This document shows positions 6,207-46,927 of a DNA stretch of 57,849 nucleotides, one piece after another; position 1 is the first letter of the stretch, and every line of letters begins with the position of its first letter. Origin of the DNA: a virus (Duplodnaviria; Caudoviricetes); IMG/VR virus record IMGVR_UViG_3300004776_000002, positions 1-57,849 of that record; one strand, written 5' to 3'. The notes below the pieces were generated by a model that saw nothing but the letters and a program-made list of their open reading frames with translations, was not told the DNA's origin and ran no database searches. Both the position numbers and the translations under genes were made by a program.

Positions 6207-6542
6207 ATGATTGATGTCATTAATCGATTTCGCAGACAAAATAATGTTGACCCGGTAGGACATATTGACAGTCAAGTTAATCAATATTGTCTAATGCATT
6301 GTTTAGAAATGTCCCGACAAAATAGCGTATGTCATGCACCTGATTATTACTTGAATGAATGGTCTGAAGCAGTAGCAATGATACAATATTGTGAGGATTG
6401 GCAAGACAGAGTAATCTTTGATATACTAGGATCTAGCGATGTAGGTCATCGAGATTTGCTTCTACAGTCTAATACTATATCATATGCATCCTGTATTCAT
6501 GATTGGGTTGTGTATGTAACAATTCGTGGAACGAATAATTAA
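6207..6542 (+). CDS. CAP/SCP-like small protein
   Basis: INRFR...HCLEMS...H...EAVA...SDVGHRDLLL pattern. Confidence 0.45.
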   Translation: MIDVINRFRRQNNVDPVGHIDSQVNQYCLMHCLEMSRQNSVCHAPDYYLNEWSEAVAMIQYCEDWQDRVIFDILGSSDVGHRDLLLQSNTISYASCIHDWVVYVTIRGTNN

Positions 6543-7036: not shown

Positions 7037-7549
7037 ATGAAAAGATTTTTAGCTATATGCATTGCGACATTGACAATGTTAGCGATGGTTGTGCCGTCGA
7101 TAGCTGACACCACCAAGACCACCACGACACCATCGACTGTGACATTATTACCCGCAAGACCTGCTGTTTTGTTATCTGATGTTGCTAATCAATTGCCTCC
7201 GTTGAAGCAGGGAATTATGTACAGTGTACTAGACAGTAAAATCAAATATCTGACTACTGTTGAAGTGCTGAACCTGAACAATGTCAATATGCCAAAGTGG
7301 GCAACGTGTGTCAAGAATCTTGATTTAGAATTTGGATATTCTACCGAAGAGACTGGCGTTGTGATTGTCTCATATCCAATTGTCAAATTAAAAGATTTAG
7401 GTGTTACTATGCCAATTCTTGATTTAATTGAATGTAACGTTGGTGTTGCAGCTGGTATGAAGAGAATTGGTTTAGGTGCTGGCAACGCGAAGGGCAATAA
7501 TGAATTTGACTGGGGTGTCACAGCAACATTGATTAATATAAAGTTTTAA
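7037..7549 (+). CDS. Secreted / outer-membrane protein
   Basis: Signal peptide (MKRFLA...SIA). Ends in an alternating beta pattern with terminal Phe. Confidence 0.5.
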   Translation: MKRFLAICIATLTMLAMVVPSIADTTKTTTTPSTVTLLPARPAVLLSDVANQLPPLKQGIMYSVLDSKIKYLTTVEVLNLNNVNMPKWATCVKNLDLEFGYSTEETGVVIVSYPIVKLKDLGVTMPILDLIECNVGVAAGMKRIGLGAGNAKGNNEFDWGVTATLINIKF

Positions 7550-7625
7550 GGGAAATAGCGGTCAGAACGTTAACCACAAAAGACTGCGGGTAGACCAACG
7601 TTCAGTCTACCTACCGTAAAAAGGG

Positions 7626-7829
7626 GTGATTATGTGGTGGGATGCATTATTAGATATATTAAACAAATTTATACCTAACAGAAAAGCCGCATTAGTTGAT
7701 CAGTTGAATGCTTTAAATGTGAAGTATCAACAGGCTCTTCAGGAAGGTCGCGATACGGACGCTGCAACTATTAGGAAACAGATGGATGAATTAAGACAAA
7801 AGGCTGGACTTACAGGGGGTGATGTATGA
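7626..7829 (+). CDS. Small coiled-coil protein (possible spanin component)
   Basis: Overlaps the next lipoprotein gene via ATGA. Confidence 0.35.
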   Translation: MIMWWDALLDILNKFIPNRKAALVDQLNALNVKYQQALQEGRDTDAATIRKQMDELRQKAGLTGGDV

Positions 7830-8197
7830 GAAACTTGACGAAGTTAATGCTCGTTCTTCTTCTGCTGGTTTCAATAGCCGGTTGTGCATCCTGGATAGTT
7901 CAACCTCAAAAGGTGGTTCTGTTACCCGAAGAGAGAATATTCACAGTTCCAGCAGGACAAAAGATTGACGTTCTTTTAGACAAGAAACCTCTATCGATGA
8001 CTTTTCCATATGATATGAAGTTAGTCAGTCCTGCAGTATTAGTGGCGCAAGAACAGAAATTGAATGATGCAACCTTTAAACAAATATCAGCAGAGAAGAG
8101 AAACAGTGGAATATTGCAATTCTTAACGGTGTTGTTTGGGGCATGCGGCGGAGCAATAGCATTGTGGCTTAAAAATAAAGTGACAAAGAAAGTCTAA
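7826..8197 (+). CDS. Lipoprotein with C-terminal TM segment (u-spanin-like architecture)
   Basis: Lipobox IAGC after a hydrophobic signal, and C-terminal TM ILQFLTVLFGACGGAIALWL. Confidence 0.5.
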   Translation: MRNLTKLMLVLLLLVSIAGCASWIVQPQKVVLLPEERIFTVPAGQKIDVLLDKKPLSMTFPYDMKLVSPAVLVAQEQKLNDATFKQISAEKRNSGILQFLTVLFGACGGAIALWLKNKVTKKV

Positions 8198-8240
8198 GGT
8201 TTACTCAAATATCCGTTGATCTGTAAAGGGAGGATTCCTC

Positions 8241-8408
8241 GTGAAAGTCTACTTCAATACATCCAAAGAAAAAGACAGTCCAAGAAAATTGATTGATGTC
8301 GAGTTGGTAAAAGATTTCAAGACTACCTTTCTGGTGCGACTTCCAGATGGAAATGTCGTACTTCGCAAGAAGAATCGAGATTTGATACAAGATGAAATGA
8401 AAGGTTAA
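8241..8408 (+). CDS. 55-aa hypothetical protein (not in the ORF track)
   Basis: GGGAGG SD, GTG start, MKVYFNTSKEKDSPRKLIDVELV...KG stop. Confidence 0.55.
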   Translation: MKVYFNTSKEKDSPRKLIDVELVKDFKTTFLVRLPDGNVVLRKKNRDLIQDEMKG

Positions 8409-8412
8409 ATCT

Positions 8413-10944
8413 ATGGATCTATCTATTATAATACCCAGTTTCAAAAGAGCTAATTTATTGCAATATGGACTGCAATCTCTTGTTCGTCAAAAAGTTACTT
8501 TTTCCTATGAAATAATAGTTCTGAATGATGGGATAGTTGACGAGACTCAGAAAGTCTGTGATTCTTTCAAGGATAAATTGAACATACGATATATATTTAC
8601 TGGTCATCGTAACGTTCCTAAACCTGTCTGGCGGATTCCGGGTTTCGCAATTAATATTGGGGCTAAGATGGCTAAGGGTAAGTTTATGATTATTATGTGC
8701 CCTGAGATATATCTTTTAGATGATTGCATTCAGGGTATTGTTGATACTCTCAAGAACAGCAAGAAACAAATAGTTATTACTAATGGTAAAGATGATTTAG
8801 ATGAAACATTCTTAAATCATGTGCGTCGAGGGTTAACACCAGAACAACTGCTTACTTTATATGATGCAAGACCAGAATTAAATACCGAGTTTCCATTCTT
8901 CTTGGGTTTAACCACCAGCGAGTTCATTGATATAGGTGGATACGATGAAGACTTTATTGGAAACTGTTGGGATGATCAAGATATAGTAACTCGGTTGAAA
9001 CAAAATGGTGGAGTGTATGAAAAACTGGCGTATAGAGTAATTCATCTGTATCATTCTCGGATCCGATATGATAATGAAAAGACTAAAGAGATGTGGGACT
9101 ACAACAAAAAGGTTTATGATACCAAACTTGGCACAATAAAGAGAAATGTTGGCAAGGTATGGGGCAACGTAATTCAAGCGCCAGAAACTAGACAGCCAAG
9201 TGAACTAGAAAAATATTTTACGAATATATACGAACAGAATACGTGGAATGGAAAAGAATCGCGGTCGGGTACTGGATCTGATTTAGTTAACACCGCTGCC
9301 CTGCGCCCACTATTGGTAGAATTTATAAACTCTTTAGCAGGAACTTCTCAGGAAATAAACTCTATGCTGGATCTTCCTTGTGGCGATTTTAATTGGATGA
9401 AGGAGATTATTGGACAGTTGAAAATAAAAGAGTACCTAGGTGGGGATATAATACCAACAATGCTCAAAGATAATGAAGTAAGATATGGCGGAATGTCTAT
9501 TGTAACAACCCCAAAATTTGCATATATCAACATGTTAGAAGATGTCCCGCCAAAGGTGGACTTGATACTGTGTCGAGATGGACTTGTTCATTTGTCATAT
9601 AAGAGCGTAATTAAAGTATTAAAGAACTTTATAGCTTCAGGATCAACATTTCTTCTAATGACCGCCTTCACAGACAAAAAACGTTCCTACCCAGACATAA
9701 ATGATGGTGAATGGCGCCCAATAAATTTTCAACTTCCGCCATTTAACTTTCCAGCACCGCGAACTACACTTTTGGAACAATGCACTGAAGGTAGTAATCT
9801 TTTTTTAGATAAGTCTTTAAGCCTTTGGACCTTGAATGATATAAAGCAGGCCTTGGAACCTTCTTTAGTAGTACCCGAAATAGTAGTCGAGGACACCAGA
9901 TATGTAACGTTTGGAACAGATGCTACGCTTAAATATGATGCTGTAGATTCTAAGTTCTGTGTGAATACTTCTAGGAAAATTAAGTTAAAAGTTGCTCATA
10001 TTCACCCCTGGTGGGACAGTGCCGGTGTAGGTATTATTCATGCTCGAATGATGAATAAATATACCAACATAGAAGTACGGCATATAGTAGCCGGTAGTAC
10101 GTGCTTAAATCATGCGCTTGATTTGGTATTGGGAGAACATGACGATAAAATTAGAAAAGTTCTTGCTGATGCAGATATTCTTCACTTCAATACTTTTTGG
10201 TATGATGATATTCAACTTCCAATTAAATTCCCCTGGAAAGATTATGTGACAGGGAAAAAGTTGATTTTTCATATGCATGGTGGGGCTGTTTGCTTTGATT
10301 ACAAGAAGTTGGAAGAAATATCTAAGATTGCTATGATGGTTACTTGTTCACCATTGATACCCAAGTTTATGCCCTTTGCTACGTGGGTACCTAACATTTT
10401 GCCAATTGATGAACAACAATGCCTTCCAAAAACACGGGTTAGCCAAGTGCCAATGAAGTTTTTGCTTCTTGTTAATCATGATCATAATAAGGGCAGAGCA
10501 GAAATAGAGTGGTTGTTTCATAAGTTAACCGCAATTTACGGTTATAATATTCCATTTGAGAGTTGGCTCCATAAATATTCCTATGCGGAATGTCTGGAAA
10601 AGCGGAAAAACTTTGATATTGTCATAGATAATATTACTCAGGGATTTATTGGAATGGTAGGTTGGGAATCTATGAGCCAGGAACAGGTATGCATCGCTCG
10701 GTTGTCTCCTACAGTATTAAAAAATTATACAGAGTTAGGAATGGGAGTAGCGCCACCAATCGTCAATGTGTCAGGCATAGATGAATTAGCTAAGAATATT
10801 CTTGAACTGGTAACGAACAAGGAAAAAGTGCAAGAAATTCAGAAGAATGGTCGAATTTGGATGGAGAAGTACTACAGCCCAAAGAGATTATGTCAATTGT
10901 GGGAAGAACGATACTTAGGAATGATGAAAGGTAAAAATGAGTAA
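8413..10944 (+). CDS. Multidomain GT2 glycosyltransferase + SAM methyltransferase + GT-B glycosyltransferase
   Basis: N-terminal LSIIIPS...IIVLNDG...GGYDEDF.GNCWDDQD; central SGTGS...LDLPCGDF...DLILCRD; C-terminal DIVID...GMVGWESM. Confidence 0.75.
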   Translation: MDLSIIIPSFKRANLLQYGLQSLVRQKVTFSYEIIVLNDGIVDETQKVCDSFKDKLNIRYIFTGHRNVPKPVWRIPGFAINIGAKMAKGKFMIIMCPEIYLLDDCIQGIVDTLKNSKKQIVITNGKDDLDETFLNHVRRGLTPEQLLTLYDARPELNTEFPFFLGLTTSEFIDIGGYDEDFIGNCWDDQDIVTRLKQNGGVYEKLAYRVIHLYHSRIRYDNEKTKEMWDYNKKVYDTKLGTIKRNVGKVWGNVIQAPETRQPSELEKYFTNIYEQNTWNGKESRSGTGSDLVNTAALRPLLVEFINSLAGTSQEINSMLDLPCGDFNWMKEIIGQLKIKEYLGGDIIPTMLKDNEVRYGGMSIVTTPKFAYINMLEDVPPKVDLILCRDGLVHLSYKSVIKVLKNFIASGSTFLLMTAFTDKKRSYPDINDGEWRPINFQLPPFNFPAPRTTLLEQCTEGSNLFLDKSLSLWTLNDIKQALEPSLVVPEIVVEDTRYVTFGTDATLKYDAVDSKFCVNTSRKIKLKVAHIHPWWDSAGVGIIHARMMNKYTNIEVRHIVAGSTCLNHALDLVLGEHDDKIRKVLADADILHFNTFWYDDIQLPIKFPWKDYVTGKKLIFHMHGGAVCFDYKKLEEISKIAMMVTCSPLIPKFMPFATWVPNILPIDEQQCLPKTRVSQVPMKFLLLVNHDHNKGRAEIEWLFHKLTAIYGYNIPFESWLHKYSYAECLEKRKNFDIVIDNITQGFIGMVGWESMSQEQVCIARLSPTVLKNYTELGMGVAPPIVNVSGIDELAKNILELVTNKEKVQEIQKNGRIWMEKYYSPKRLCQLWEERYLGMMKGKNE

Positions 10945-11437
10945 GCCATCATATTTATTTATTACATATCTTAATAGTTTACTTACACCAAATGGCACGG
11001 TATTGGATATTGGGTGTGGAACAAAAGAGATAGCGAAGGAATTGAAGTGTGCTAGAGTTGTTACTTTAGATGTCTGGAAGCCGTTCAATCCAGACATTTG
11101 GTGTGATTTGTCTTTAATTTCAAAGTTACCATGTGAAGACAATACATTTGAGTTGGTATTGTTGATAGATGTGATTGAACATCTGCCTAAAGTCTGTGGT
11201 TTTCGAATACTGAAAGAGGTCAAACGAGTTACTAGTAAATACGTTTTTATACTGACTCCGCTTTGGTGGGATGAAAATATCGTACCTATGAATGATCCCG
11301 AGTCACCCTACTATAAGAATGAGTTTGATAGACATTTAAGTTTGTGGGATGCAGATGACTTGATTGAGTTTGAACAGGTTACATCTATAACCACACTTAA
11401 AAATTATTTTTTAGGTATATGGAGAAAAGATGAATGA
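10937..11437 (+). CDS. Class I SAM methyltransferase
   Basis: VLDIGCG motif I and DVIEHL. Confidence 0.8.
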   Translation: MSKPSYLFITYLNSLLTPNGTVLDIGCGTKEIAKELKCARVVTLDVWKPFNPDIWCDLSLISKLPCEDNTFELVLLIDVIEHLPKVCGFRILKEVKRVTSKYVFILTPLWWDENIVPMNDPESPYYKNEFDRHLSLWDADDLIEFEQVTSITTLKNYFLGIWRKDE

Positions 11438-12002
11438 GAAAATACTGAATCTGACGAATTCAAAGACATCTACAGCAAGCAAAGTCTTTGTTACCGGTAT
11501 TTATGGAAGTGGCAAAAGCTTTTATGCCAAGACCTATGCTAAACAATTTGGGTTGAAATATATAGATTTCGATAAGTACTTTTCTTATGCAAAAATAAAC
11601 CCAAATATATCAGCATCTGCAGAGGACAATTTCTTCAACATTTTATCTGATAGGTTTATCACTGATGCTATTCCATTTGCCGAAAATGGCAGTTCTGCGA
11701 GATTTATACAATATGCTCAAGAGAATGCCATTCTGCTAGTTTGTTGTGTATGTCCAAAAAAGGAAGTTTGGGTTGATCGAATTAAGAAGAAGGAAGAGAT
11801 GAAAGGGAAAAAATGTGCCACGGTCACCATTATGCAGTATGCTGATTTTTGTAGCTTCTATTATAAGAGTTTTCCGGCATATTCTAATCTTAATATAGAA
11901 TACTATGACACCTATATGAATGAATACATTACTCGAGAACAGATGTATGAAAGAATAAGTTGGCTTAAACCACTTTTAGATATAATCTATGAGATATATT
12001 GA
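11430..12002 (+). CDS. P-loop kinase
   Basis: VFVTGIYGSGKS Walker A followed by YIDFD, an NMP/sugar-kinase-like pattern. Confidence 0.6.
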   Translation: MNEKILNLTNSKTSTASKVFVTGIYGSGKSFYAKTYAKQFGLKYIDFDKYFSYAKINPNISASAEDNFFNILSDRFITDAIPFAENGSSARFIQYAQENAILLVCCVCPKKEVWVDRIKKKEEMKGKKCATVTIMQYADFCSFYYKSFPAYSNLNIEYYDTYMNEYITREQMYERISWLKPLLDIIYEIY

Positions 12003-12027
12003 CAGGGTTACTGGAACATGATATAAT
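11981..12027 (+). promoter_or_regulatory. Sigma70-type promoter with upstream TATAATCTAT box
   Basis: TTGACA 11999, 17-nt spacer ending in TGA, TATAAT 12022. Confidence 0.85.
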
Positions 12028-12036
12028 GAGAGGTGG

Positions 12037-12813
12037 TTGATTATGATATATCCATTTCATGCTACCTACAAAAATATGTGGCATTTTACAACTGAAAGCA
12101 TCCTGCCGTGTTTAGACTATTTGCCAGATTACAAAAAAGAAGACACTATACTTGTTCCCAATATCCCATACTATCCTATAGGTTTGGTTAGAAGAGCCCT
12201 GACTGGGTTTAACGTTGTGGAAACAGATACTTTTATTTCGAAGAAATATATGTCCTGTTATATGGCTCTCAGTGGTGTGGAAACAGTAAGAAGGCTCTGC
12301 AAACAACTGATGTCTTATGTAACACCGAAGCAAATAGATAAAGCAGGTAAGCCTTGTATTTACATGAATTTCAGGTTGCACATGAGAAGATGGCTGCCTT
12401 TAAGTAATATACAGACATTGGTGGATAGACTAAAGGATAAGTACACTATTCTATTATGCCTAAATCCTAAGTGTGAAAAGATAACTAACGTTCCTGATAT
12501 AACTGGCGTTATAAAAATATATGATCTTACTTATGAAGAGCAATTGTCCTATGCTATGATTGCCGATTATGCTATATATGGGAATGGCGCAGGCATGATT
12601 ATTCCTAGAATTGTTGGTATGCCCTCTGTTCTAGTGACACCTTGTTTGATAACAGAAACAGCTCCAGTTGGCCCATATTATGGAAAGAACGAAATAGTAG
12701 TCTCTGATAAAAAACTTGATTACAATGCGCAATGGAACTTTGATACGGAAAATGTTTCAGTAGATGCGGTTTTAGAAGCTTTTGATAAAGCTATCAAGAC
12801 GCCGTGGGCATGA
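12037..12813 (+). CDS. Putative GT-B glycosyltransferase (GT61/GT9-like)
   Basis: NMWHFTTE near the N-terminus and LTYEEQL...AIYGNGAGM. Confidence 0.5.
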   Translation: MIMIYPFHATYKNMWHFTTESILPCLDYLPDYKKEDTILVPNIPYYPIGLVRRALTGFNVVETDTFISKKYMSCYMALSGVETVRRLCKQLMSYVTPKQIDKAGKPCIYMNFRLHMRRWLPLSNIQTLVDRLKDKYTILLCLNPKCEKITNVPDITGVIKIYDLTYEEQLSYAMIADYAIYGNGAGMIIPRIVGMPSVLVTPCLITETAPVGPYYGKNEIVVSDKKLDYNAQWNFDTENVSVDAVLEAFDKAIKTPWA

Positions 12814-13376
12814 TGTTAGTTGAGAATGATTTTATTCCAATAATTAGTGGTGTCTTCGGATATTTGGGTTTGAAAGAGGGTTATTTACTATATGAACTGG
12901 CTAGTAAATCAGCCAGTAAGTGTGTATTGGAAGTAGGAGCATTGCATGGATTATCAAGTATATTTTTGGCTATGTCCGGTAAGCAGGTTCTATCCATAGA
13001 TTTGTGGGATGGCAGAAATATTTCTGACGGAAAAAGCTACATAAGTACAGATCTGATAAGTTATATTCGTAATATGACAACCAGAGGATTGTATAATTTT
13101 ATTCCTTTTAAGATGTCTTCCAAACAAGCATCTGAGATAATAACAAATAATTATGATATTGGGTTAATATTTATAGATGGGGCACACGATTATCCTTCTG
13201 TTTGTAGTGATATTCGGAACTGGGAAGTTAGATTAAAGCCAAACACTTGGTTTCTTTTTCACGATTATAACCAACCATGCGGAGTAAAGAAGGCAGTTGA
13301 TGAATGGGTAGAGAAGAACGCTGGCCGAATAAAAGAGAGACTAGATGTATGCAGCATTGTAGGATTTAGAGTATGA
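12804..13376 (+). CDS. Methyltransf_24-like SAM methyltransferase
   Basis: LEVGALHGLS, IFIDGAHDY, FHDY motifs. Confidence 0.8.
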   Translation: MGMMLVENDFIPIISGVFGYLGLKEGYLLYELASKSASKCVLEVGALHGLSSIFLAMSGKQVLSIDLWDGRNISDGKSYISTDLISYIRNMTTRGLYNFIPFKMSSKQASEIITNNYDIGLIFIDGAHDYPSVCSDIRNWEVRLKPNTWFLFHDYNQPCGVKKAVDEWVEKNAGRIKERLDVCSIVGFRV

Positions 13377-14452
13377 ACATTCTAACTATTTTAGGTACGC
13401 GACCAGAAATTATACGTTTATCAAGAATTATTCCTAAACTGGATAAGTTGTGTACTCATACGTTAGTACATACTGGTCAGAATTATGATATTCGATTAAA
13501 TGACATCTTCTTCAAAGAGTTGCGTATTCGAAAACCAGATATTTTTCTTGGAATAATGACAAGTAATTTCGGAGAACAGGTTGGCTGTATGTTCCAGAGG
13601 TTAGAAAGAATATTAGTAGATAAGAAGCCGGATAAGGTTCTGATTTTGGGGGATACAAATAGTGGTTTGTGTGCGATTGTGTGTGAGCGCCTAGGAATAC
13701 CGGTATATCATATGGAAGCCGGAAACCGCTGTTTCGATAAACGCGTTCCTGAAGAAATAAACAGGAAATTAATAGATTCAATTTCATCCTACAATCTGCC
13801 TTATACTAATTTGAGCAAAGAGAATTTGTTGCATGATGGCGTGTCAAAGAACCGAACATTTGTTACAGGGAACCCGATCTATGAAGTGTTGAATTATTAT
13901 TTATCTGATATAAATAAAAGTCAGGTTTTGAAACGTCTGAAATTGAAGTCAGGTAAGTATTTTCTTTCTACTTTTCATCGTGCAGAGAATGTAGATGATC
14001 ACATGACTCTAAAGCAGATAGTTGAGGGTATTTCTCTGATTGCTAATTATTATAAGATGCCGGTTATTTGCAGTATTCATCCGCGTACTTTAGAGAAGTT
14101 ATTGGCAATTAATGCCGATAATCCTAATGTAATCTTTTGTAAACCGTTTGGTCTGTTTGACTTTGTAAAGTTAGAAAAAAATGCCAAATGTATTATTAGC
14201 GATAGTGGCACAATTGCTGAGGAAGCATGCATCTTAAAAACGCCCAATGTTATTATTCGATGCGCAACCGAGCGACCAGAAGTGATTGAATGTGGAAGCA
14301 ATGTCTTGGCGGGTACTAACTGCGATGATATTTTGAGATGCACACAGATAATGTGTTCTATGAATAAGAATTGGGAAATACCTGAAGGATATGATGTAAA
14401 GAATGTATCCAACTGCGTAGTAAAAATCTTGTTAGGAAAGGATGATTTATGA
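13373..14452 (+). CDS. wecB: UDP-HexNAc 2-epimerase (WecB/FnlC/QnlB family)
   Basis: GTRPEIIR, HTGQ, GDTNS, HMEAGNR, PEEINR, HRAEN, SDSG..EEA, TERPE motifs. Confidence 0.9.
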   Translation: MNILTILGTRPEIIRLSRIIPKLDKLCTHTLVHTGQNYDIRLNDIFFKELRIRKPDIFLGIMTSNFGEQVGCMFQRLERILVDKKPDKVLILGDTNSGLCAIVCERLGIPVYHMEAGNRCFDKRVPEEINRKLIDSISSYNLPYTNLSKENLLHDGVSKNRTFVTGNPIYEVLNYYLSDINKSQVLKRLKLKSGKYFLSTFHRAENVDDHMTLKQIVEGISLIANYYKMPVICSIHPRTLEKLLAINADNPNVIFCKPFGLFDFVKLEKNAKCIISDSGTIAEEACILKTPNVIIRCATERPEVIECGSNVLAGTNCDDILRCTQIMCSMNKNWEIPEGYDVKNVSNCVVKILLGKDDL

Positions 14453-15411
14453 AATTAGATATATCAGGGCCAGTTCTTTGTTTTGGGGGTTCAGGTAGTT
14501 GGGGTTGGCAATTAGCTAAAACTCTTTTAGATGATTCAAGTATACCTTCTGTTACTATATTTTCCAGGAATGAGTTTAACCAAGTAAAAATGCAGAGAGC
14601 CTTTAATAACGATAGGTTAAAGTTTATTATTGGTGATGTTAGAGATTATGAAGCAGTTCTTAGTGCATGCGCTAATAAGTGTACTGTGTATCTTTTAAGT
14701 GCGATTAAGCATGTTCCGATTTGTGAGGAACAACCCGATGAGGCAATTAAGACTAATATTATTGGAACACAAAACGTGATTCGAGCTAGTATTGTACAGA
14801 GAGTAGTTAAAGTGGTTGATGTTTCTTCTGATAAGGCTGCTGCCCCGAGTAATCTGTATGGAATGACTAAAGCAGTAGGAGAAAAACTTATTTTGGCTGC
14901 TAATAAACAATTAAATACTCGGTTCAAATGTATTCGGGCTGGAAATGTGTTAGGTAGTAATGGATCTGTGTGCCAGTTATTTATTGATCAGATTAAAAAA
15001 GATAATATTGTCAAAATTACCTCTAAGGGAATGAGTAGATACTTTCTTACACTTCCGCAGGCAATTCGTTTGTTGATAACTGCTTGTGAGTTTGACGCAG
15101 ATATGTTGGTTATGAAGATGCCCAGTTGTCGAATTTATGATTTGGCTAAGGTACTTATCAAGTATCATGGTAACAAAGACACAAGAATTATCGAAACTGG
15201 CATACGACCGGGCGAAAAATTACACGAGTTATTGATTACGGAATGGGAAGCATCAAAAACATATAAATTTGGTGACGACTTCTATGCTATCTCAGATACT
15301 CCCTTGAACCTTCCTAAAGTGGACTTTCCGTTTTATAGTTCAAACTCGCAATCATATATGACGATGAAACAAATTGAAACTATGTTAGGTAAAGGAGGGT
15401 TCTTGAAATGA
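14449..15411 (+). CDS. UDP-GlcNAc 4,6-dehydratase (FnlA/PseB/CapD family)
   Basis: GGSGSWG, GDVRD, KHVP, SSDKA, YGMTK, GNVLGSNGSV, IRPGEKLHE motifs. Confidence 0.9.
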   Translation: MKLDISGPVLCFGGSGSWGWQLAKTLLDDSSIPSVTIFSRNEFNQVKMQRAFNNDRLKFIIGDVRDYEAVLSACANKCTVYLLSAIKHVPICEEQPDEAIKTNIIGTQNVIRASIVQRVVKVVDVSSDKAAAPSNLYGMTKAVGEKLILAANKQLNTRFKCIRAGNVLGSNGSVCQLFIDQIKKDNIVKITSKGMSRYFLTLPQAIRLLITACEFDADMLVMKMPSCRIYDLAKVLIKYHGNKDTRIIETGIRPGEKLHELLITEWEASKTYKFGDDFYAISDTPLNLPKVDFPFYSSNSQSYMTMKQIETMLGKGGFLK

Positions 15412-16256
15412 AAAAAGTTGTTGTATTGGGTAGTAGTGGCATGGCAGGACATATGGTGTATAAATTTTTAGAGACAACTGGTAAGTATAATATTCTGGGC
15501 ATTTCTCGAACGCAAGAGTCAGGAATCACAAGTGAGTTATTTGACATAGAGAATGACTTAGTTGAATGTGTAAAATTTCTAAGTAAATACAAACCAGATG
15601 TAATTATTAATTGCATTGGCGTGTTGGTAAAGTCATCTCAGGATGATCCAACTCGAGCTATATTTACTAATAGTTTTTGGCCGCATGTTCTTGAAGATGT
15701 CAGTCGGGAACTGAACGCCAGACTTATTCATATCAGTACAGATTGTGTATTTGACGGAAAGAATGGTCCCTACAGTGAGACAGATTGGCCCACTGAGAAG
15801 AACTGGTATGGACGTAGCAAAGCCTTAGGTGAGATTGTAAATGATAGAGATTTAACTATTCGAACATCTATTATTGGGCCAGAGTTGAAGGATGACGGTA
15901 CAGGATTATTTGAATGGTTTATGCAACAGACTGGAGAAGTCTCTGGATTTACTAACGTGATGTGGAATGGTATTACAACTTTGGAACTGGCTAAGCAGAT
16001 TTACAGGATCTTGGACACTAACCTTACTGGTCTTTATCATTTGGTTACTGACGTTCCAATTTCCAAAGGTGATCTGTTAGTGGCAATGCAGAATATCTTT
16101 GGAAAGACTGACGTTAAGATAAATCTGACTGTTAATAATAATCAACGAAACAAAGTGTTAATCAATAATCGAATTGATGAGTACGATCCGAAAATACCTA
16201 CATACGAGATTCAACTCATCGAGTTGAAGAATATAAATGAACAACGAAATAATTAA
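15408..16256 (+). CDS. RmlD-like NDP-4-keto-6-deoxysugar reductase (QnlA/WbvR-like)
   Basis: GSSGMAG, ISTDCVFDG, YGRSK, RTSIIGPE motifs. Confidence 0.85.
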   Translation: MKKVVVLGSSGMAGHMVYKFLETTGKYNILGISRTQESGITSELFDIENDLVECVKFLSKYKPDVIINCIGVLVKSSQDDPTRAIFTNSFWPHVLEDVSRELNARLIHISTDCVFDGKNGPYSETDWPTEKNWYGRSKALGEIVNDRDLTIRTSIIGPELKDDGTGLFEWFMQQTGEVSGFTNVMWNGITTLELAKQIYRILDTNLTGLYHLVTDVPISKGDLLVAMQNIFGKTDVKINLTVNNNQRNKVLINNRIDEYDPKIPTYEIQLIELKNINEQRNN

Positions 16257-16572
16257 CAAACCATGGGGAGCTGAGGAAATAATTTGGAGACGAGATCGTT
16301 TTCTATTTAAAATTATACATATCAATAGAAACGAAGTTACTTCTTGGGTATATAACGAGAAACGCAAGGTACTTTTGTGCATAGGTGACAATGCTTGTGT
16401 GTTCTATCAAAACGAAGACATCGGCGTGTGTCTCAGATTGAATGATATAATAGTAGTAAATGCTGATGACAAACATAGAATTCAAGCGTTAGAGAAGGAC
16501 GTTACTCTCGTCGAGTTAAGTATGTCTGGACGTAGTTCCTTTGACAGGGAAAGTACTGCTTCTTCATTCTGA
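16237..16572 (+). CDS. Cupin protein (mannose-6-phosphate isomerase type II C-terminal-like), possibly degenerate
   Basis: KPWG...KIIHIN...HRI...VE pattern. The usual His ligands are partly absent. Confidence 0.55.
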   Translation: MNNEIINKPWGAEEIIWRRDRFLFKIIHINRNEVTSWVYNEKRKVLLCIGDNACVFYQNEDIGVCLRLNDIIVVNADDKHRIQALEKDVTLVELSMSGRSSFDRESTASSF

Positions 16573-16612
16573 ATGTATATATCGCGCAAAATATATTATA
16601 TAGTTCGATAAA

Positions 16613-16659
16613 TATAATCCACAACAGTACTTGACACCGCGACTGCTTCGTGATATAAT
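16613..16659 (+). promoter_or_regulatory. Sigma70-type promoter
   Basis: TATAATCCAC 16613, TTGACA 16631, 17-nt spacer, TATAAT 16654. Confidence 0.85.
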
Positions 16660-16665
16660 AATGTC

Positions 16666-16749
16666 GTGGACGGTGACGCGGTACGTCAAATTAGGCTTAC
16701 GAATATTTTCAGCTCTGATTGCAGCTCAACCAACTGCCCGTTCACACCA
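16666..16749 (+). ncRNA. tRNA-like small RNA ending in ACCA
   Basis: GTGGACGG/CCGTTCAC 8-bp stem plus ACCA and three internal hairpins. The 5' end falls at the predicted +1 of the promoter. Confidence 0.6.
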
Positions 16750-16754
16750 ATAAC

Positions 16755-16801
16755 TATAATCTATGCAATATATTGACAAACCGAACAATCTGTGATAAAA
16801 T
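16755..16801 (+). promoter_or_regulatory. Sigma70-type promoter
   Basis: TATAATCTAT 16755, TTGACA 16773, 17-nt spacer, TAAAAT 16796. Confidence 0.8.
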
Positions 16802-16807
16802 AATTTT

Positions 16808-17040
16808 GGTCGTTAAGCAATGCGTGAATGTCTCATCAACGTTCGCGAAGGGTGGGTACAGAGCTGAGAGGCTGCGATATATGTTTGACCAGCATATCAC
16901 ATTTTCCACCATTGGCTTCCTAAACTTGGAAGGCGCTGTCACCTTGACAAGACATCCAGCGCAGGTTTATTAGTTGATACCTCTGAGAGTGTGGATAGAG
17001 CACTCCAGTATTAAACAACTAACTAAGATAGAGTTTTCTT
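16808..17040 (+). ncRNA. Candidate structured RNA or long structured leader
   Basis: A series of stems (GGTGG/CCACC, CTTCC/GGAAG, GCGCTG/CAGCGC, TTAGTTG/CAACTAA) followed by a pyrimidine tract, with no convincing SD-led ORF. Confidence 0.45.
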
Positions 17041-17440
17041 TCTTTCTTTCTCATCCTAGTGATGATTTTGGACTTCTCTATCTTGGAAATTTAGAAAGAT
17101 ACATAATGAAACTTAAACTTACATACATACGATTACCAAAAGGCACCAAAGGGTGCATAGAACAATCACACTACGACTTACATACAGTAGAAAAAGAATC
17201 ATTAAATATAGCGTGTATACTGACAAATAAAAATGGCGCTAAACTTATCAGAAGTTGGATTGAAAAACATAATGCCATATATAGACACAAATAAACCACA
17301 CTTTATTGGAAAGAAGTTCATACCATACGCCGTACGACGTGATGAGTTTGGTTATGTCGTGGAATGTGCTAGGTGTAATATTAAAAATAGTTGTAGAAAA
17401 TGTTTATTTACAAGCAGTTGTTTTTGCAAAGGAGGCTGTT

Positions 17441-17614
17441 ATGGGAGTAACAAAGATTAGAACTGCAACACAGAAGGAACAAGTATGTTGTGAATGTAAG
17501 AAAATAATAAAGAAAGGTGAAAAGTACGCTGACACAGATATTAAGTTAGCTCCACCAAAACCTTTCCCAACTAGCAAGTATTGTCTTCCTTGTTCAGAGA
17601 AGATTGCTAAATAA
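17441..17614 (+). CDS. Small zinc-finger protein
   Basis: GGAGG SD before ATG 17441; CCEC...CLPC. Confidence 0.5.
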   Translation: MGVTKIRTATQKEQVCCECKKIIKKGEKYADTDIKLAPPKPFPTSKYCLPCSEKIAK

Positions 17615-17801
17615 GAAGACAGACAATTTAGTGTTAGTAGAACGAGTTAATGAAGAAAAGTTTAAACTAAGAACAGCTTATTTAGTTTATAGAAATGGCA
17701 GTCTGATTAAGACGACAGATGGAATTGTGCAATTCTTTTTTGACAAGAAGACAGCAAAAGAATTTATCAGACTGTTGAAGATACAAAAGTGAGATGTCGA
17801 G

Positions 17802-18395
17802 ATGTTATATACAATCGGACACTCTGTGCTTGCAGAGAATGAGTTTGAGAATCTCGTCTCAAAATTAGATATTATTTGGGACGTGCGTTCGCATCCAGGT
17901 TCATCAAAGTATCCAATATATAATAAAGAGAATTTAATTAAGTGGATGAAACGAATCGGCATTCAATATGAGTGGGTGTCTGATTTAGGCGGTTGGCGTG
18001 ACGTTGACTTGTTTGAACGCGAACGATTTCTAAAGTATGGTGTTGACGTCGCTAAGTACGCAAGCATCAAATTTCCAAAACATTATATTGCTAAAACAGT
18101 TCAAAAGAACGATTTCGGTCCACTGTTCTCAAAGACAGAGAAGTTTGACAAGCCAAGTTGGACAAACGTTGGGTTATATGATTATTCCTGGTTTATGACG
18201 TTGAACAAGTTTCTCAAGGCAGTGGATGTATTGATAGCATTGGGAGAGAAAAACAATATTGGAATAATGTGTGCAGAGTTACTATGGTGGAAGTGTCATC
18301 GTAGTATGATTTCTGATTATGTAGCATGGCGCGGTGTAAAAATATATCATTTGCAACCCAAGTTTGTGGAACACTATTCTGGAGATATGGAATGA
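17802..18395 (+). CDS. DUF488 family protein
   Basis: YTIGHS, DVRS.P, LGG, MCAE..WW.CHR motifs. Confidence 0.85.
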   Translation: MLYTIGHSVLAENEFENLVSKLDIIWDVRSHPGSSKYPIYNKENLIKWMKRIGIQYEWVSDLGGWRDVDLFERERFLKYGVDVAKYASIKFPKHYIAKTVQKNDFGPLFSKTEKFDKPSWTNVGLYDYSWFMTLNKFLKAVDVLIALGEKNNIGIMCAELLWWKCHRSMISDYVAWRGVKIYHLQPKFVEHYSGDME

Positions 18396-18874
18396 TTACA
18401 GAGAAGACAGAACGAAACAAACAAATTAAAGAATTATATAGTCGAGGTGATATTTCTACTACAAAATTGGCTGTGCAGTTTGGTCTTTCAGAACCACGCG
18501 TTTGGCGCATTATCAATGGGTACTTGCGCCCGTTGGAAGGTCGCAGACGACGATTCAAAAAAGTAAATGAGTGGAAACGCAATAATAAAAACGTTGAGTT
18601 TTATAAGTTTTTGGCTAAGAAACACACCAGACTAAACAGATTAAAACGTTTGAAAGTTGTTGGTTCTCATACGTGGCAAGAATGGGAAGATTTGAAGAAG
18701 AAATATAATTATTGTTGCGCAATATGTGGCAAACGCGAGCCATTTAAAAATCAATATTATAAGTTTCTAACAGAAGATCACAAGTTGGCGATTGTTAATG
18801 GTGGAACTGATAACATCAATAACATACAGCCAGCATGTTTTCGATGTAATTCGAGTAAACAAGATTTCTATTGA
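18392..18874 (+). CDS. HNH endonuclease with N-terminal HTH
   Basis: CAICG...DHKL...GG...NI..AC..CN..K. ATG 18392 overlaps the upstream stop. Confidence 0.85.
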   Translation: MITEKTERNKQIKELYSRGDISTTKLAVQFGLSEPRVWRIINGYLRPLEGRRRRFKKVNEWKRNNKNVEFYKFLAKKHTRLNRLKRLKVVGSHTWQEWEDLKKKYNYCCAICGKREPFKNQYYKFLTEDHKLAIVNGGTDNINNIQPACFRCNSSKQDFY

Positions 18875-19055: not shown

Positions 19056-19111
19056 TGTTATGTAAGATTTTGAGATGTCGAGAGTAACACAAACAGAAAG
19101 GAGATGTTGAG

Positions 19112-19258: not shown

Positions 19259-19362
19259 AAAATGTGCTAGCGCGTTCTACAAGTTTGTTTATCGCGGCTT
19301 TCGAGATTAAACTGGCATCGAATAATTTCTTATCAATCACCAAATCGAAAGGAGATGTCGAG

Positions 19363-22032: not shown

Positions 22033-22303
22033 TATCAGAGTGAAGGATCTATATAAACGGAACCAAGAGCAGTACTTTCGAGTGCAAGGTCCGAAAGAAA
22101 GGAGATGTCGAGATGGGTGCAAGATTAACTTTGAGACAAGGAACTGGGTATGTGTGTCGTATCTGTGGGAAGAAGATTGAGATATATCATAAACAGATTA
22201 CTTTCAAGGGTTGGAATTCTGGTGCAGTTATTCATTCAGATTCGAGAGATTGTGACAGAAAGAAGAGATTGTCAAAACAAACAGGCGGATGTTAATAGAA
22301 TAC

Positions 22304-22332: not shown

Positions 22333-22384
22333 GTATGTGTGGTTGAGATGTCGAGGAAGTACAACAGTTTGAGGGAGGTGTAGA

Positions 22385-27087: not shown

Positions 27088-27099
27088 GGAGATGTCGAG

Positions 27100-27909: not shown

Positions 27910-28035
27910 GAGATGTCGAAGAAGAATAAACATAATCATTTCTATTGTGATGTCCAATGATTGTCTGTTCTTGCGGTAAGAAAAAGAAAATACCGATGTT
28001 AAATCCGAGAGTTATTAATCAAAGGAGATGTCGAG

Positions 28036-29722: not shown

Positions 29723-30583
29723 ATGGAGAATTTAAAAGTAAAATACAATTCGACCAGAACTAAATTATATGCATGTTGTCCTTTTTGCATATCTGCTGGC
29801 AAGAAACCTGACACGAAATATCATCTTTTTATTACCCCTGGTCGCGCTGCCTTTTGTTTCCGGTGCGGCTACAAAACGTCTTATTTCAAACTTACGCAGA
29901 TTTATCGAATTGATACTTCTGCATATAGAGGCGATGATTCAGTCAAGTCACAATCTGACTTTGATGTTGATGTTGCAAAGAATGTGATGGAATTCAACGA
30001 CTCTATGTATTCTCAGGGAGCTGTGAATTATCTGCACAAACGAAAAGTTGATGACAATGTCATCAAGTACATGCACGTCAAGTTGGGTAAGGAACGACTG
30101 TTTGGTCGAGTAGTATTTACTGACGATATCAATAAATACTATGTCGCTCGGGCATTTCTTCCAGGGGTTGAGCCAAAAACGTTGAACCCAAAATCTACTA
30201 ACAGATCGTTGATGTGTTTTACGCGTGCTATTCATAGAACATTGTGGTTGGTAGAGGGAGTGTTCGACGCAGTCCCATTCATAAAGACTGGTAGAGACGT
30301 TGCAGTAATATTAGGAAAGAATCTAAGTCAGTTTCAATTGAAACAGTTACAGTTAAGTGCGATTAACAACGTAATAATCGCTTTAGATACCGATGCTTAC
30401 GCCACAGCTCAGATATTGTCTGGTATACTGGCCGGTGCGCTCCCGTTTGTTAATATTGGTATAATGACTTATGAATCTGGCTCTGGCAAAGATCCATCTG
30501 ATTATGATATCGAATTGTTTAATAATACATCGGTCTACTGGACGCGGATCGTAGACCGTTCCTTAATGGAGATAATCATATGA
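29723..30583 (+). CDS. DNA primase (Zn finger + TOPRIM)
   Basis: CPFC...H...CFRC, VEGVFD, ALDTD, KDP motifs. Confidence 0.85.
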   Translation: MENLKVKYNSTRTKLYACCPFCISAGKKPDTKYHLFITPGRAAFCFRCGYKTSYFKLTQIYRIDTSAYRGDDSVKSQSDFDVDVAKNVMEFNDSMYSQGAVNYLHKRKVDDNVIKYMHVKLGKERLFGRVVFTDDINKYYVARAFLPGVEPKTLNPKSTNRSLMCFTRAIHRTLWLVEGVFDAVPFIKTGRDVAVILGKNLSQFQLKQLQLSAINNVIIALDTDAYATAQILSGILAGALPFVNIGIMTYESGSGKDPSDYDIELFNNTSVYWTRIVDRSLMEIII

Positions 30584-30813
30584 GTATTAGAGAAAGAGTA
30601 ATAAAGGTTATAAGAGATACTATTAATTCAAGTAAAGAGATTGATGATACCGACAATCTGGTTGATGATTTGGGATACGACGAGTTGGATAATGTCGAGA
30701 TGGTTATGGCGTTGGAGTCAGAGTTTAGTATTGAGATTCCTGATGAGGACGCTGAAGAGTTTCTAAATGTTAGCGATGTTGTCAGATACATTGAGGACAA
30801 AGTAGAGGAGTAG
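30580..30813 (+). CDS. Acyl carrier protein homolog lacking the phosphopantetheinylated Ser
   Basis: DDLGYDELDNVEMVMALESEFSIEIPDEDAE versus canonical DLGADSLD.VELVMALEEEF..EIPDEEAE. Confidence 0.85.
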   Translation: MSIRERVIKVIRDTINSSKEIDDTDNLVDDLGYDELDNVEMVMALESEFSIEIPDEDAEEFLNVSDVVRYIEDKVEE

Positions 30814-35073: not shown

Positions 35074-35345
35074 GTGTATTGACTGTACGAACTTTAAGAC
35101 AAGAGTAATTACTCAAATGATGATTGACAAGCGTTTTCGCAAGGCTTCGCGTTCGATGTTGGATGAGTTGGGAATTAAACTTGGGTTTCCAATTAATGCT
35201 GTGATGTTGAGACGTTTAGATAAAGAATCAGAAATTGTTATTTATTATTGCATTAATGGTTTAATGAATAGAGAGGTTTACATTGCAACCAGTCACAATA
35301 ATCTGATTAAGTTGTCCCCTAAAGATGGTTATTGTAAGTGTTATC

Positions 35346-35392
35346 TATAATCTATGAAATATATTGACAAAACGAACGAGGCATGATATAAT
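35346..35392 (+). promoter_or_regulatory. Sigma70-type promoter with upstream TATAATCTAT box
   Basis: TTGACA 35364, 17-nt spacer, TATAAT 35387. Confidence 0.85.
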
Positions 35393-35418
35393 GTATAGTC
35401 AATTAGGGAGATGTCGAG

Positions 35419-42085: not shown

Positions 42086-42132
42086 TATAATCTATGAGAT
42101 ATATTGACGGAGTGAATGGAGCATGATATAAT
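42086..42132 (+). promoter_or_regulatory. Sigma70-type promoter with upstream TATAATCTAT box
   Basis: TTGACG 42104, 17-nt spacer, TATAAT 42127. Confidence 0.8.
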
Positions 42133-46659: not shown

Positions 46660-46927
46660 GAGTTCGAATATCGCGTCAATCGGGTATGATGAGGCAAATA
46701 GCATTTTGGAAGTGCAGTTTCTCAATGGTAAAGTGTTTCAGTACGCAGGCGTTCCCAAGGAGTTGCACGAGAATTTTATGAAGTCGGAGTCTAAGGGTAA
46801 GTTCTTCTATGCTAACATTCGCAAGGCTGATTTCGTGTGCAAACCAATCGTAGAGGTAAAAGATGAAAAGAAAGAAAGAGATTTGGCCGTTGGAACAGAG
46901 GAAACGGGAGCCAGCGAACAAGTTTGA
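46640..46927 (+). CDS. KTSC domain protein
   Basis: V.SSNI.SIGYD....LEV.F..G..FQY.GVP...S.G.FF...IR. Confidence 0.85.
   Translation: MERQAVKSSNIASIGYDEANSILEVQFLNGKVFQYAGVPKELHENFMKSESKGKFFYANIRKADFVCKPIVEVKDEKKERDLAVGTEETGASEQV

What the first reader, a model, noticed from the sequence alone, without database searches (positions are those of the whole stretch)
16666..16749. Promoter-defined 84-nt tRNA mimic with encoded CCA but no canonical anticodon arm
Seen: the predicted +1 (7 nt after TATAAT) is the first base of an 8-bp stem GTGGACGG/CCGTTCAC (with a G4.U wobble) followed by ACCA. The arms are TGACG-CGGTA-CGTCA, AATTAGGCT-(13-nt loop)-AGCTCTGATT and GCAG-CTCAACCAA-CTGC. The 8+4 acceptor/T stack has the tRNA length of 12 bp, but there is no TTCRA loop and no 7-nt anticodon loop. 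Inference: a non-decoding tRNA mimic, for example a decoy for anticodon nucleases or synthetases, an amino-acid donor, or the tRNA-like piece of a split RNA.
Basis: partly seen in the sequence, partly recalled or inferred. Interest (0 to 1): 0.75.

Follow-up and report, generated by a model that had tools for sequence, protein, structure and literature searches.

The report
Orphan tRNA-shaped RNA cassette in phage
A strong phage promoter is followed at once by an 84-base sequence that folds like a tRNA and ends in CCA but cannot decode; it looks like a small RNA gene, yet no relative or expression data exist to show that it is one.

Summary
A perfect TTGACA-17-TGnTATAAT promoter (16631-16659) puts +1 at G16666. 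Bases 16666-16749 fold into the four-arm cloverleaf described: 8-bp acceptor, 4-bp T-like stem, ACCA tail (MFE -27.1 kcal/mol, z -2.97). ARAGORN and Rfam find no tRNA, tmRNA or other family. The element fills the gap between two copies of the phage's promoter module.

The interpretation cannot be confirmed. The element is an orphan. Covariance-model and pattern searches of viral and genome collections found no homologue. The only relative (G006, DnaB 65% identical) lacks it. The runs that hold this DNA are all DNA runs with identical sequence. It has no T-loop consensus, no 7-nt anticodon loop and no single-stranded junction linkers, so 3D tRNA mimicry is unproven.

Best reading (about 0.4): a discrete early-expressed, non-decoding, 8/4-type tRNA-shaped RNA. 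Rivals: a 5' leader of tandem-promoter transcripts, a chance fold in a recombination scar, a decayed tRNA, a mini-ORF.

The more solid result lies next door. The RNA made from the second promoter (16808 to about 17095) is conserved in G006, with 12 compensatory pairs and none broken, and matches no Rfam family.

The parts
16608..16630 (+). Upstream module of promoter P1 (ATAAATATAATC...GTAC)
   Evidence: It is a direct repeat of 16750-16761 at 142-nt spacing (D2). It resembles the module upstream of other window promoters and of G006 promoters.
16631..16659 (+). Promoter P1: TTGACA, 17 nt, TGaTATAAT
   Evidence: It scores 12/12 with the extended -10. It is one of 9 such sites, all on the + strand, against 0.31 expected.
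16666..16749 (+). 84-nt cloverleaf-shaped RNA, from predicted +1 to encoded ACCA
   Evidence: Fold. Descriptor scan and shuffles. GC is 0.50 against about 0.29-0.45 in the flanks.
16666..16673 (+). Acceptor-like stem, 5' strand (pairs with 16738-16745; G4.U wobble)
16674..16688 (+). D-like arm: 5 bp with 5-nt loop CGGUA
   Evidence: The palindrome TGACG-N5-CGTCA has no second exact copy in the window.
16689..16720 (+). Central arm: 9 bp with one bulged U and a 13-nt loop (optionally 3 more bp and a UAUU tetraloop). There is no 7-nt anticodon loop.
16721..16737 (+). T-like arm: 4 bp with 9-nt loop CUCAACCAA (no UUCRA)
16738..16745 (+). Acceptor-like stem, 3' strand
16746..16749 (+). Single-stranded ACCA tail (A discriminator plus CCA)
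16750..16801 (+). Second promoter module and P2 (TTGACA 16773, TGaTAAAAT to 16801). It begins one base after the CCA.
   Evidence: Copies of this module occur at 35342-35377, 11981-12004 and 42086-42108.
16808..17095 (+). Neighbouring conserved structured RNA transcribed from P2. It is context, not part of the tRNA-like element.
   Evidence: It aligns with G006 18258-18550. Of 55 predicted pairs, 12 changed on both sides and 0 are broken. It matches no Rfam family.

Best explanation
A self-contained small-RNA cassette. The host sigma-70 RNA polymerase starts at G16666 from an early-type consensus promoter. The first 84 nt fold into a closed four-arm cloverleaf whose 8-bp + 4-bp acceptor/T-like stack carries a free ACCA.

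Inferred steps:
- No terminator follows, so the 3' end would be made as for CCA-encoding bacterial tRNA genes. An endonuclease cuts in the AU-rich trailer (which is also the next promoter's upstream module), and exonucleases then trim back to the protected CCA.
- Read-through transcripts from the upstream operon could be cut at the 5' side by RNase P.
- The product cannot decode. It would act through its acceptor-CCA minihelix, occupying or being used by a protein that reads tRNA ends (CCA-adding enzyme, a synthetase, EF-Tu, an aminoacyl-transferase or a tRNA-directed defence nuclease).

Shown: promoter, fold, CCA, cassette boundaries, absence of tRNA family signal. Inferred: transcription, processing, any protein partner.
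For: - P1 belongs to the phage's own promoter family: 9 sites against 0.31 expected, sharing the C[AG]TG-N-TATAAT form. The seven sites other than P1 and P2 are followed by a ribosome-binding site and an ORF. P1 is followed instead by the fold.
- The terminal stem begins at the predicted +1 and the CCA ends one base before the repeated promoter module, so the RNA fills the cassette exactly.
- The fold is well defined: 43% of the ensemble, z -2.97. It is strand-specific and keeps its shape with flank added.
- Its stability equals that of real tRNAs caught by the same descriptor. It is rare in shuffles: 2 candidates at -27.1 or below in 60 shuffled windows.
- It is a GC island (0.50) in flanks of about 0.29-0.45 GC, as is the neighbouring conserved RNA.
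- 8/4 acceptor branches, some with A73, occur in phage tRNAs (PMC5389517, section 12).
- T4 carries stable tRNA-cluster RNAs of unknown function (PMC9697503, passage).
Against: - It is an orphan. Model R1 found nothing in 8 sources, 5 + 2 related phage records, the whole of G006, or the 11 viral and 19 genome pattern hits.
- The only relative that keeps the neighbouring RNA lacks it.
- There is no terminator, and a second promoter follows directly, so it may be only a leader.
- It has no UUCRA T-loop and no 7-nt anticodon loop. The predicted junction has 0 unpaired bases, against 8-13 in the control tRNAs. That argues against a tRNA-like L-shape unless end pairs open.
- No tRNA-handling enzyme was found among the window's proteins.
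- It was selected post hoc by a reader scanning very many windows.
Confidence: 0.4

Rival explanations
1. It is the 5' leader of a tandem-promoter unit. P1 and P2 both drive the conserved downstream RNA and early operon. The 84 nt are simply the extra 5' end of P1 transcripts. The stem that begins at +1 protects the 5' end from 5'-end-dependent decay, and the CCA is incidental.
For: No terminator lies between P1 and P2. P2 follows 142 nt after P1. The downstream RNA is the conserved entity, and G006 manages with one promoter. A fully paired 5' end is the known form of 5' stabilisers (established knowledge, not tested here).
Against: A simple hairpin would suffice, yet this is a closed four-arm fold that ends precisely in NCCA at the cassette border. 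Complementarity to the downstream RNA does not exceed that of shuffles (-51.0 against -46.1 +/- 4.2; 12.7% of shuffles as good).
Confidence: 0.25
2. It has no function. It is spacer DNA left when promoter-flanked modules recombined, and it happens to fold.
For: It is absent from G006 and from everything else searched. It lies at the right-hand edge of a ~10-kb sugar/methyltransferase module that G006 lacks. It is flanked by direct repeats of the promoter module. Two candidates at least as stable arose in 60 shuffled windows.
Against: By my arithmetic, the joint chance of such a fold starting at +1 of a consensus promoter is about 1e-5 per window. The GC island and the exact fit to the cassette also argue against chance.
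Confidence: 0.2
3. It is a decayed tRNA gene, the remnant of a former phage tRNA cluster.
For: It has a cloverleaf, an encoded CCA and GG in the D-like loop. Homologues of the nearby DUF488 gene sit beside tRNA genes in 2 of 7 related loci: L010 has 1 tRNA and L011 has 8.
Against: No residual tRNA signal appears at E<=10 or with ARAGORN at 80% thresholds. All stems are intact, and decay breaks stems first. It has its own consensus promoter. There are 0 tRNAs in 57.8 kb.
Confidence: 0.07
4. It is a mini-protein gene: 30 aa from ATG16661, or 36 aa leaderless from GTG16666.
For: Both frames are open (my reading).
Against: ATG16661 lies upstream of the predicted +1 and has no ribosome-binding site. 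The phage's early genes use a conspicuous GAGATGTCGAG or GGAGG site. GUG16666 would be buried in an 8-bp stem. Neither peptide matches a PHROG family.
Confidence: 0.04
5. It is a DNA-level element: an operator (TGACG-N5-CGTCA at +9 to +23), or part of a replication origin in the long non-coding stretch with tandem promoters.
For: There is a perfect 5-5-5 palindrome just downstream of +1. The region holds tandem strong promoters and a pyrimidine run in about 650 nt with no convincing gene. This resembles promoter-primed phage origins, which is established knowledge and only an analogy.
Against: The palindrome is not repeated at any other promoter (2 matches at <=1 mismatch against 0.98 expected). 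An operator does not explain the nested 8-bp closing stem or the CCA.
Confidence: 0.04

Closest known systems
(8/4) tRNAs and allo-tRNAs of bacteria and phages (Mukai et al. 2017, PMC5389517; sections 12 and 16 read)
   Same: Both have a 12-bp acceptor branch split 8/4, and a long D-stem with a small D-loop. The phage (8/4) tRNA-His species have A73 and no G-1. Some irregular members are charged but not used in translation, or are inactive.
   Different: Those RNAs keep a recognisable anticodon loop and were found through similarity to the tRNA-Sec model. Many have a long variable arm. This RNA has a 13-nt loop, no variable arm, a 9-nt non-consensus T-like loop and no Rfam tRNA or tRNA-Sec signal. 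The supplementary figures showing their exact cloverleaves could not be seen.
Phage T4 stable RNAs RNAC and RNAD (species 1 and 2)
   Same: They are small phage-encoded non-coding RNAs of unknown function (PMC9697503, passage; annotation). RNAC pairs its ends and carries a tRNA-type arm.
   Different: The T4 RNAs are 139 and 119 nt and lie inside a tRNA cluster next to tRNA-Arg. RNAC has a hairpin CCGGG-UUCGAAU-CCCGG and no encoded CCA. The present RNA is 84 nt, has its own promoter, encodes CCA, lacks the T-loop, and has no tRNA neighbour.
tRNA-like domain of tmRNA (one- or two-piece)
   Same: Both have an acceptor stem with a G.U pair and a CCA end but no anticodon.
   Different: ARAGORN tmRNA mode finds nothing. 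The G.U is at pair 4, not pair 3. There is no T-loop consensus and no tag reading frame. No partner pairing with the adjacent RNA exceeds chance.
Bacterial Y-RNA-like YrlA and other tRNA mimics (PMC4201824, abstract in search listing only)
   Same: They are non-decoding RNAs that imitate part of a tRNA.
   Different: There is no Rfam hit. No Ro/TROVE protein appears among the window's Pfam hits. In YrlA the ends lie in the Ro-binding stem rather than in an acceptor stem; this point is recalled, not tested.

Membership tests
Canonical tRNA (Rfam RF00005 / ARAGORN) | Detection by the covariance model or ARAGORN | tested here: not met
   ARAGORN finds 0 genes in the window. It finds none on the + strand even at 80% thresholds or with introns allowed; only reverse-strand artefacts appear at 70%. 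No Rfam hit at gathering score or at E<=10 on 96 nt.
Canonical tRNA (Rfam RF00005 / ARAGORN) | 7-nt anticodon loop with U33 on a 5-bp stem | tested here: not met
   The central arm is 9 bp plus a bulge with a 13-nt loop.
Canonical tRNA (Rfam RF00005 / ARAGORN) | 7-nt T-loop UUCRANN on a 5-bp stem; D-loop GG for the elbow | tested here: not met
   The T-like loop is the 9-nt CUCAACCAA on 4 bp. GG is present in the 5-nt D-like loop, but no partner motif exists.
Canonical tRNA (Rfam RF00005 / ARAGORN) | Acceptor stem followed by a discriminator and CCA | tested here: met
   An 8-bp stem followed by A-CCA.
(8/4) allo-tRNA / tRNA-Sec-like tRNAs | 12-bp acceptor branch divided 8/4 | tested here: met
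   8-bp acceptor and 4-bp T-like stem. The definition comes from PMC5389517, section 12.
(8/4) allo-tRNA / tRNA-Sec-like tRNAs | [quoted passage not shown] | tested here: not met
   No tRNA-Sec hit at E<=10. The fold has no anticodon loop and no variable arm.
tmRNA tRNA-like domain | ARAGORN/Rfam tmRNA detection; G3.U70; T-arm; tag ORF in the same or a partner RNA | tested here: not met
   The G.U is at pair 4.
T4 RNAC-type stable RNA | Position within a tRNA cluster and a canonical T-arm | tested here: not met
   No tRNA in the window. T4 RNAC shows the hairpin CCGGG-UUCGAAU-CCCGG, and this RNA does not.
Phage sigma-70 early promoter family of this genome | TTGACA-17-TGnTAnAAT with a shared upstream module | tested here: met
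Functional tRNA mimic (any) | A discrete transcript with a CCA end; recognition by a tRNA-binding enzyme | not testable with these tools
   All 5 runs that hold the DNA are DNA runs.

The most novel reading that the evidence does not exclude
An uncultured freshwater phage that carries the genes for 2-aminoadenine DNA also carries a one-gene cassette: consensus early promoter, 84-nt RNA, CCA. The product would be a non-decoding 8/4 tRNA mimic with no T-loop and no anticodon. It would be made within the first minutes of infection to sponge or exploit a host factor that reads the acceptor-CCA end, for example a CCA-adding or repair enzyme, a synthetase, EF-Tu, or a tRNA-end-directed defence nuclease. 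That would be a minimal tRNA decoy class unrelated in sequence to any tRNA.
Probability: 0.15. Interest if true: 0.8.

Novelty: new variant of a known kind. Interest (0 to 1): 0.45.

Why it matters
Phages are known to bring decoding tRNAs, and T4 has stable tRNA-cluster RNAs whose role has stayed unknown for decades. A promoter-defined, CCA-ended RNA that keeps only the acceptor-branch geometry would show which part of a tRNA is worth copying for a non-translational purpose. It would also offer a compact handle, 84 nt with its own promoter, for finding the host factor it engages. If it is only a leader or a scar, the case is a useful caution that a neat cloverleaf plus CCA can arise without being a tRNA relative. 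The adjacent conserved RNA, which does show covariation, is a better-founded new RNA candidate. It marks this intergenic region as an RNA-rich control point at the start of the early genes.

Tried and rejected
- The upstream 111-aa ORF has no relative in viral contigs.
- The 5'-half pattern gave 5 viral hits, all unrelated on inspection. The 3'-half pattern gave 0.
- The loop-anchored pattern gave 11 viral hits, none scoring with model R1. It gave 19 genome hits, about the number expected by chance. The best scored 13.1 bits, E 0.9, with many broken pairs.
- R1 on seven related phage records: best 12.2 bits, E 4.5.
- Blocks of the neighbouring RNA found only G006, one metagenome contig with near-identical sequence and nothing in genome contigs. 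Model R2 found only G006 in 9 records.
- blastn of 16400-17400 against GenBank phages gave no match. The nearest cultured phages have DnaB at 25% identity or less.
- No RNA holder was listed among the sequencing runs. The contigs laid from 4 DNA runs carry no differing letter across 16200-17800, so there is no population variation to test pairing.
- Pairing between the 84-nt RNA and the neighbouring RNA is not better than for shuffles.
- The palindrome as a repeated operator is not supported.
- The mini-ORFs match no PHROG family. I ran no further search on 30-36-aa peptides.
- Hammerhead-like CUGA/GAA letters were considered by eye and dropped, because no ribozyme family appeared at E<=10.
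- A T-box-like reading of GGGUGGGUAC in the neighbouring RNA was considered and dropped for the same reason.
- Literature searches listed no report of a promoter-defined, CCA-ended, anticodon-less phage RNA. That is three keyword searches, not proof of absence.
- Supplementary figures of PMC5389517, which show the irregular tRNA cloverleaves, could not be consulted.

Full report
**What is there**

The window is a 57,849-bp fragment of an uncultured phage (an IMG/VR record), with all long ORFs on the + strand. Between the end of ORF 16237-16572 and the next convincing gene lies a non-coding stretch that holds two consensus promoters.

P1 reads TTGACA (16631-16636), a 17-nt spacer, TG (16651-16652), one base, TATAAT (16654-16659). 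The seventh base after the -10 is G16666.

- 8-bp terminal stem GUGGACGG/CCGUUCAC, with G.U at pair 4;
- UGACG-CGGUA-CGUCA;
- a 9-bp central stem with one bulged U and a 13-nt loop;
- GCAG-CUCAACCAA-CUGC;
- a free ACCA.

The MFE is -27.1 kcal/mol and that structure makes up 43% of the ensemble. The z-score is -2.97, and 1 of 200 shuffles folds as well. The fold persists when 81 nt of 3' flank are added. The opposite strand is unremarkable (z -1.00).

**Is it more than chance?**

I wrote a descriptor: a terminal stem of at least 7 bp with at most one G.U, three enclosed hairpins in the MFE fold, then NCCA, with a total length of 60-100 nt.
- On both strands of the window it returns two candidates, this one at -27.1 and one at -9.8 kcal/mol.
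- Sixty dinucleotide-shuffled windows gave 49 candidates (0.82 per window). Nine were at -20 or below, three at -25 or below, and two at -27.1 or below.
- As a control, the same descriptor picks up real CCA-encoding tRNAs in L011 and in phage T4, at -17.5 to -26.8 kcal/mol.

So a cloverleaf this stable turns up by chance roughly once in 30 windows of this size. What is improbable is that it begins at +1 of one of the nine TTGACA-N14-TGnTAnAAT sites, all on the + strand, against 0.31 expected. My arithmetic gives about 4e-4 for that coincidence, hence about 1e-5 jointly. This number is post hoc, and the first stage looked at very many windows, so chance is reduced but not excluded.

Two further points fit an RNA gene:
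- The 84 nt are a GC island (0.50) in flanks of about 0.29-0.45 GC.
- The CCA ends at 16749, one base before ATAACTATAATC (16750-16761). That sequence repeats ATAAATATAATC (16608-16619) at 142-nt spacing and opens the next promoter module. The same module recurs at 35342-35377, 11981-12004 and 42086-42108.

The RNA therefore fills one promoter-to-promoter cassette exactly. The seven promoters other than P1 and P2 are each followed by a short leader, a ribosome-binding site and an ORF.

**Is it a tRNA?**

No.
- ARAGORN finds no tRNA or tmRNA in the window. On the region it finds none on the + strand at 90% or 80% thresholds, with introns allowed, or in tmRNA mode. At 70% only reverse-strand artefacts appear.
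- Rfam gives nothing at gathering score, nothing relevant at E<=10 on 801 nt, and no tRNA, tRNA-Sec or tmRNA at E<=10 on 96 nt.
- The T-like loop (CUCAACCAA, 9 nt) lacks UUCRA, and there is no 7-nt anticodon loop.
- The predicted four-way junction has 0 unpaired bases, against 8-13 in the control tRNAs.

A perfectly paired junction would not give the tRNA L-shape unless terminal pairs open. The resemblance is therefore established only at the level of secondary structure and the acceptor-CCA end.

**Relatives**

The element is an orphan.
- A covariance model of the single sequence (R1) scores 115.7 bits on itself. The next best hit among 131,407 bases of window plus seven loci is 9.4 bits.
- It finds nothing better than 12.2 bits (E 4.5) in five related phage records. 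It finds nothing in two records of the closest relative lineage or in the whole 97,890-bp G006.
- Exact or loop-anchored patterns found only chance matches in viral and genome contigs.
- GenBank phages hold nothing similar. The nearest cultured phages share 25% DnaB identity or less.
- Five public runs hold the DNA, all freshwater DNA runs and none RNA. The contigs of four of them show no differing letter across 16200-17800. Neither expression nor population covariation can be read.

**The one informative comparison**

G006 has DnaB 65% identical and 22 window ORFs with matches. It is syntenic around the site:
- window 6207-6542 corresponds to G006 16801-17121;
- the small zinc-ribbon ORF 17441-17614 corresponds to G006 18595-18756.

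G006 lacks the ~10-kb glycosyltransferase, methyltransferase and UDP-sugar module of window 7037-16572. It also lacks the tRNA-like element. Upstream of its single promoter (18222) is GC-rich sequence with a terminator-like hairpin, with no tRNA, no R1 hit and only a -9.2 kcal/mol descriptor candidate elsewhere.

G006 does keep the RNA that starts at the window's second promoter. Window 16802-17100 aligns with G006 18251-18550 at 79% column identity. RNAalifold predicts 55 pairs, of which 12 changed on both sides and none is broken. Neither copy matches an Rfam family. In G006 this RNA runs up to the ribosome-binding site of the zinc-ribbon gene, so it may be a structured 5' UTR.

The conserved unit is thus the P2 RNA, and the P1 cassette is an add-on in this phage. 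P1's upstream module (AAATATAATCCACAACAGTAC) resembles the module before G006's promoter (AAATGTAATCCACTTGCCTAC). This fits insertion or loss of a cassette by recombination between promoter modules, which is inference.

**How it most likely works**

I commit, at about 0.4, to a discrete early small RNA. Host polymerase starts at G16666, and the closed cloverleaf forms co-transcriptionally. Because no terminator follows, the 3' end would be made as for CCA-encoding bacterial tRNA genes. That means an endonucleolytic cut in the AU-rich trailer, then exonucleolytic trimming that stops at the CCA next to the stem. This pathway is established knowledge of tRNA 3' maturation and is not tested here. 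Read-through from the upstream operon could be released by RNase P, which measures a 12-bp acceptor/T stack (PMC4919913, abstract in the search listing only).

The product cannot decode, so any activity must come from the acceptor-CCA minihelix. It could be a sponge or substrate for a protein that reads tRNA ends. The window encodes no tRNA-handling enzyme that would point to a partner, so the target is open.

Precedents:
- Phage (8/4) tRNAs exist, including tRNA-His species with A73 and no G-1, as do irregular 8/4 tRNAs that are charged but not used in translation (PMC5389517, sections 12 and 16).
- T4 RNAC and RNAD remain of unknown function (PMC9697503, passage). T4 RNAC lies in the tRNA cluster and carries the hairpin CCGGG-UUCGAAU-CCCGG but no encoded CCA. 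This differs from the present RNA.

**Rivals**

- 5' leader or stabiliser of tandem-promoter transcripts (0.25). It rests on the lack of a terminator and on the fact that only the P2 RNA is conserved.
- Recombination scar with a chance fold (0.2). It rests on orphan status, the position at a module edge and the look-elsewhere problem.
- Decayed tRNA (0.07). DUF488 homologues sit beside tRNAs in 2 of 7 related loci, but the stems are intact and there is no tRNA signal.
- Mini-ORF (0.04). There is no ribosome-binding site, although early genes here use a striking GAGATGTCGAG cassette (19 sites against 1.9 expected). No family matches.
- Operator or origin DNA element (0.04). The palindrome is not repeated.
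- The 'split RNA' idea found no support.

**Verdict**

If real, it is a new variant of the known kind 'phage tRNA-like small RNA', closest in geometry to 8/4 tRNAs but not a member by any sequence or loop criterion. Interest is moderate (0.45). The anatomy is clean, but there is no conservation and no expression evidence, and the only relative does without it.

Noticed in passing
window 16808-17095 (promoter P2 at 16773-16801); L020 18258-18550: A structured RNA of about 290 nt starts at the second consensus promoter and is conserved in the related phage G006. Of 55 predicted pairs, 12 are compensatory and none is broken. One hairpin has an invariant 7-nt loop CUCAUCA, and there are invariant blocks CCACCAUUGGCUUC and GAGAGUGUGGAnAGAGCACUCC. 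It matches no Rfam family. In G006 it runs up to the ribosome-binding site of a small zinc-ribbon gene, so it could be a 5' UTR element or a free RNA.
   Followed up: partly
window 17791-17801, 19072-19082, 19352-19362, 22102-22112, 22345-22355, 27089-27099, 28025-28035, 35408-35418 and others: The motif GAGATGTCGAG occurs 19 times at <=1 mismatch, against 1.9 expected, and 17 of the 19 are on the + strand. In many cases it lies directly before a start codon. It looks like a fixed translation-initiation cassette or the binding site of a translational regulator of early genes.
   Followed up: partly
window 38904-39935, 46863-47249, 44621-45694: An adenylosuccinate-synthetase-like gene (the PHROG family annotated as the PurZ type), a dATP/dGTP diphosphohydrolase N-domain protein and an IMPDH/GMP-reductase-like gene lie together. 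This suggests a phage with 2-aminoadenine (Z) DNA. The replication genes are T4-like: gp32, UvsX, UvsY, DnaB-type helicase, SbcCD.
   Followed up: no
window 7037-16572: A module of about 10 kb is absent from G006. It holds a glycosyltransferase-methyltransferase fusion, several methyltransferases, a kinase-like protein, and the trio UDP-GlcNAc 2-epimerase / Polysacc_synt_2 dehydratase / RmlD-like reductase. From recall, that trio is the set for a UDP-6-deoxy-N-acetyl-hexosamine. Its target, virion protein or DNA, is unknown.
   Followed up: no
window 31191-33248 and 35419-38901: The SNF2-type helicase carries an intein splicing domain (Pfam). The 1160-aa DNA polymerase aligns to G006 over only 754 residues. 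Its N-terminal ~150 residues hit PHROG families named for thymidylate synthase and ribonucleotide reductase, which may indicate an inserted or fused element.
   Followed up: no
window 17802-18395; L010 4869-4942; L011: Homologues of the DUF488 protein (29-48% identity) lie right beside tRNA genes in 2 of 7 related viral loci. L010 has one tRNA-Arg 59 nt upstream, and L011 has eight tRNAs around it.
   Followed up: no
window 17314-17343: In run X4 the contigs break here, and one continues with unrelated letters after 17343. This hints at a structural variant in the population inside the stretch that G006 lacks.
   Followed up: no
window 30580-30813: A 77-aa acyl-carrier-type protein (PP-binding, E 1.2e-9) sits among the replication genes.
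   Followed up: no
L020 18089-18257, minus strand: A sub-threshold cobalamin-riboswitch match (19.3 bits against a gathering score of 31.5, E 0.0099) has many non-canonical pairs and overlaps the G006 promoter. It is probably spurious.
   Followed up: no
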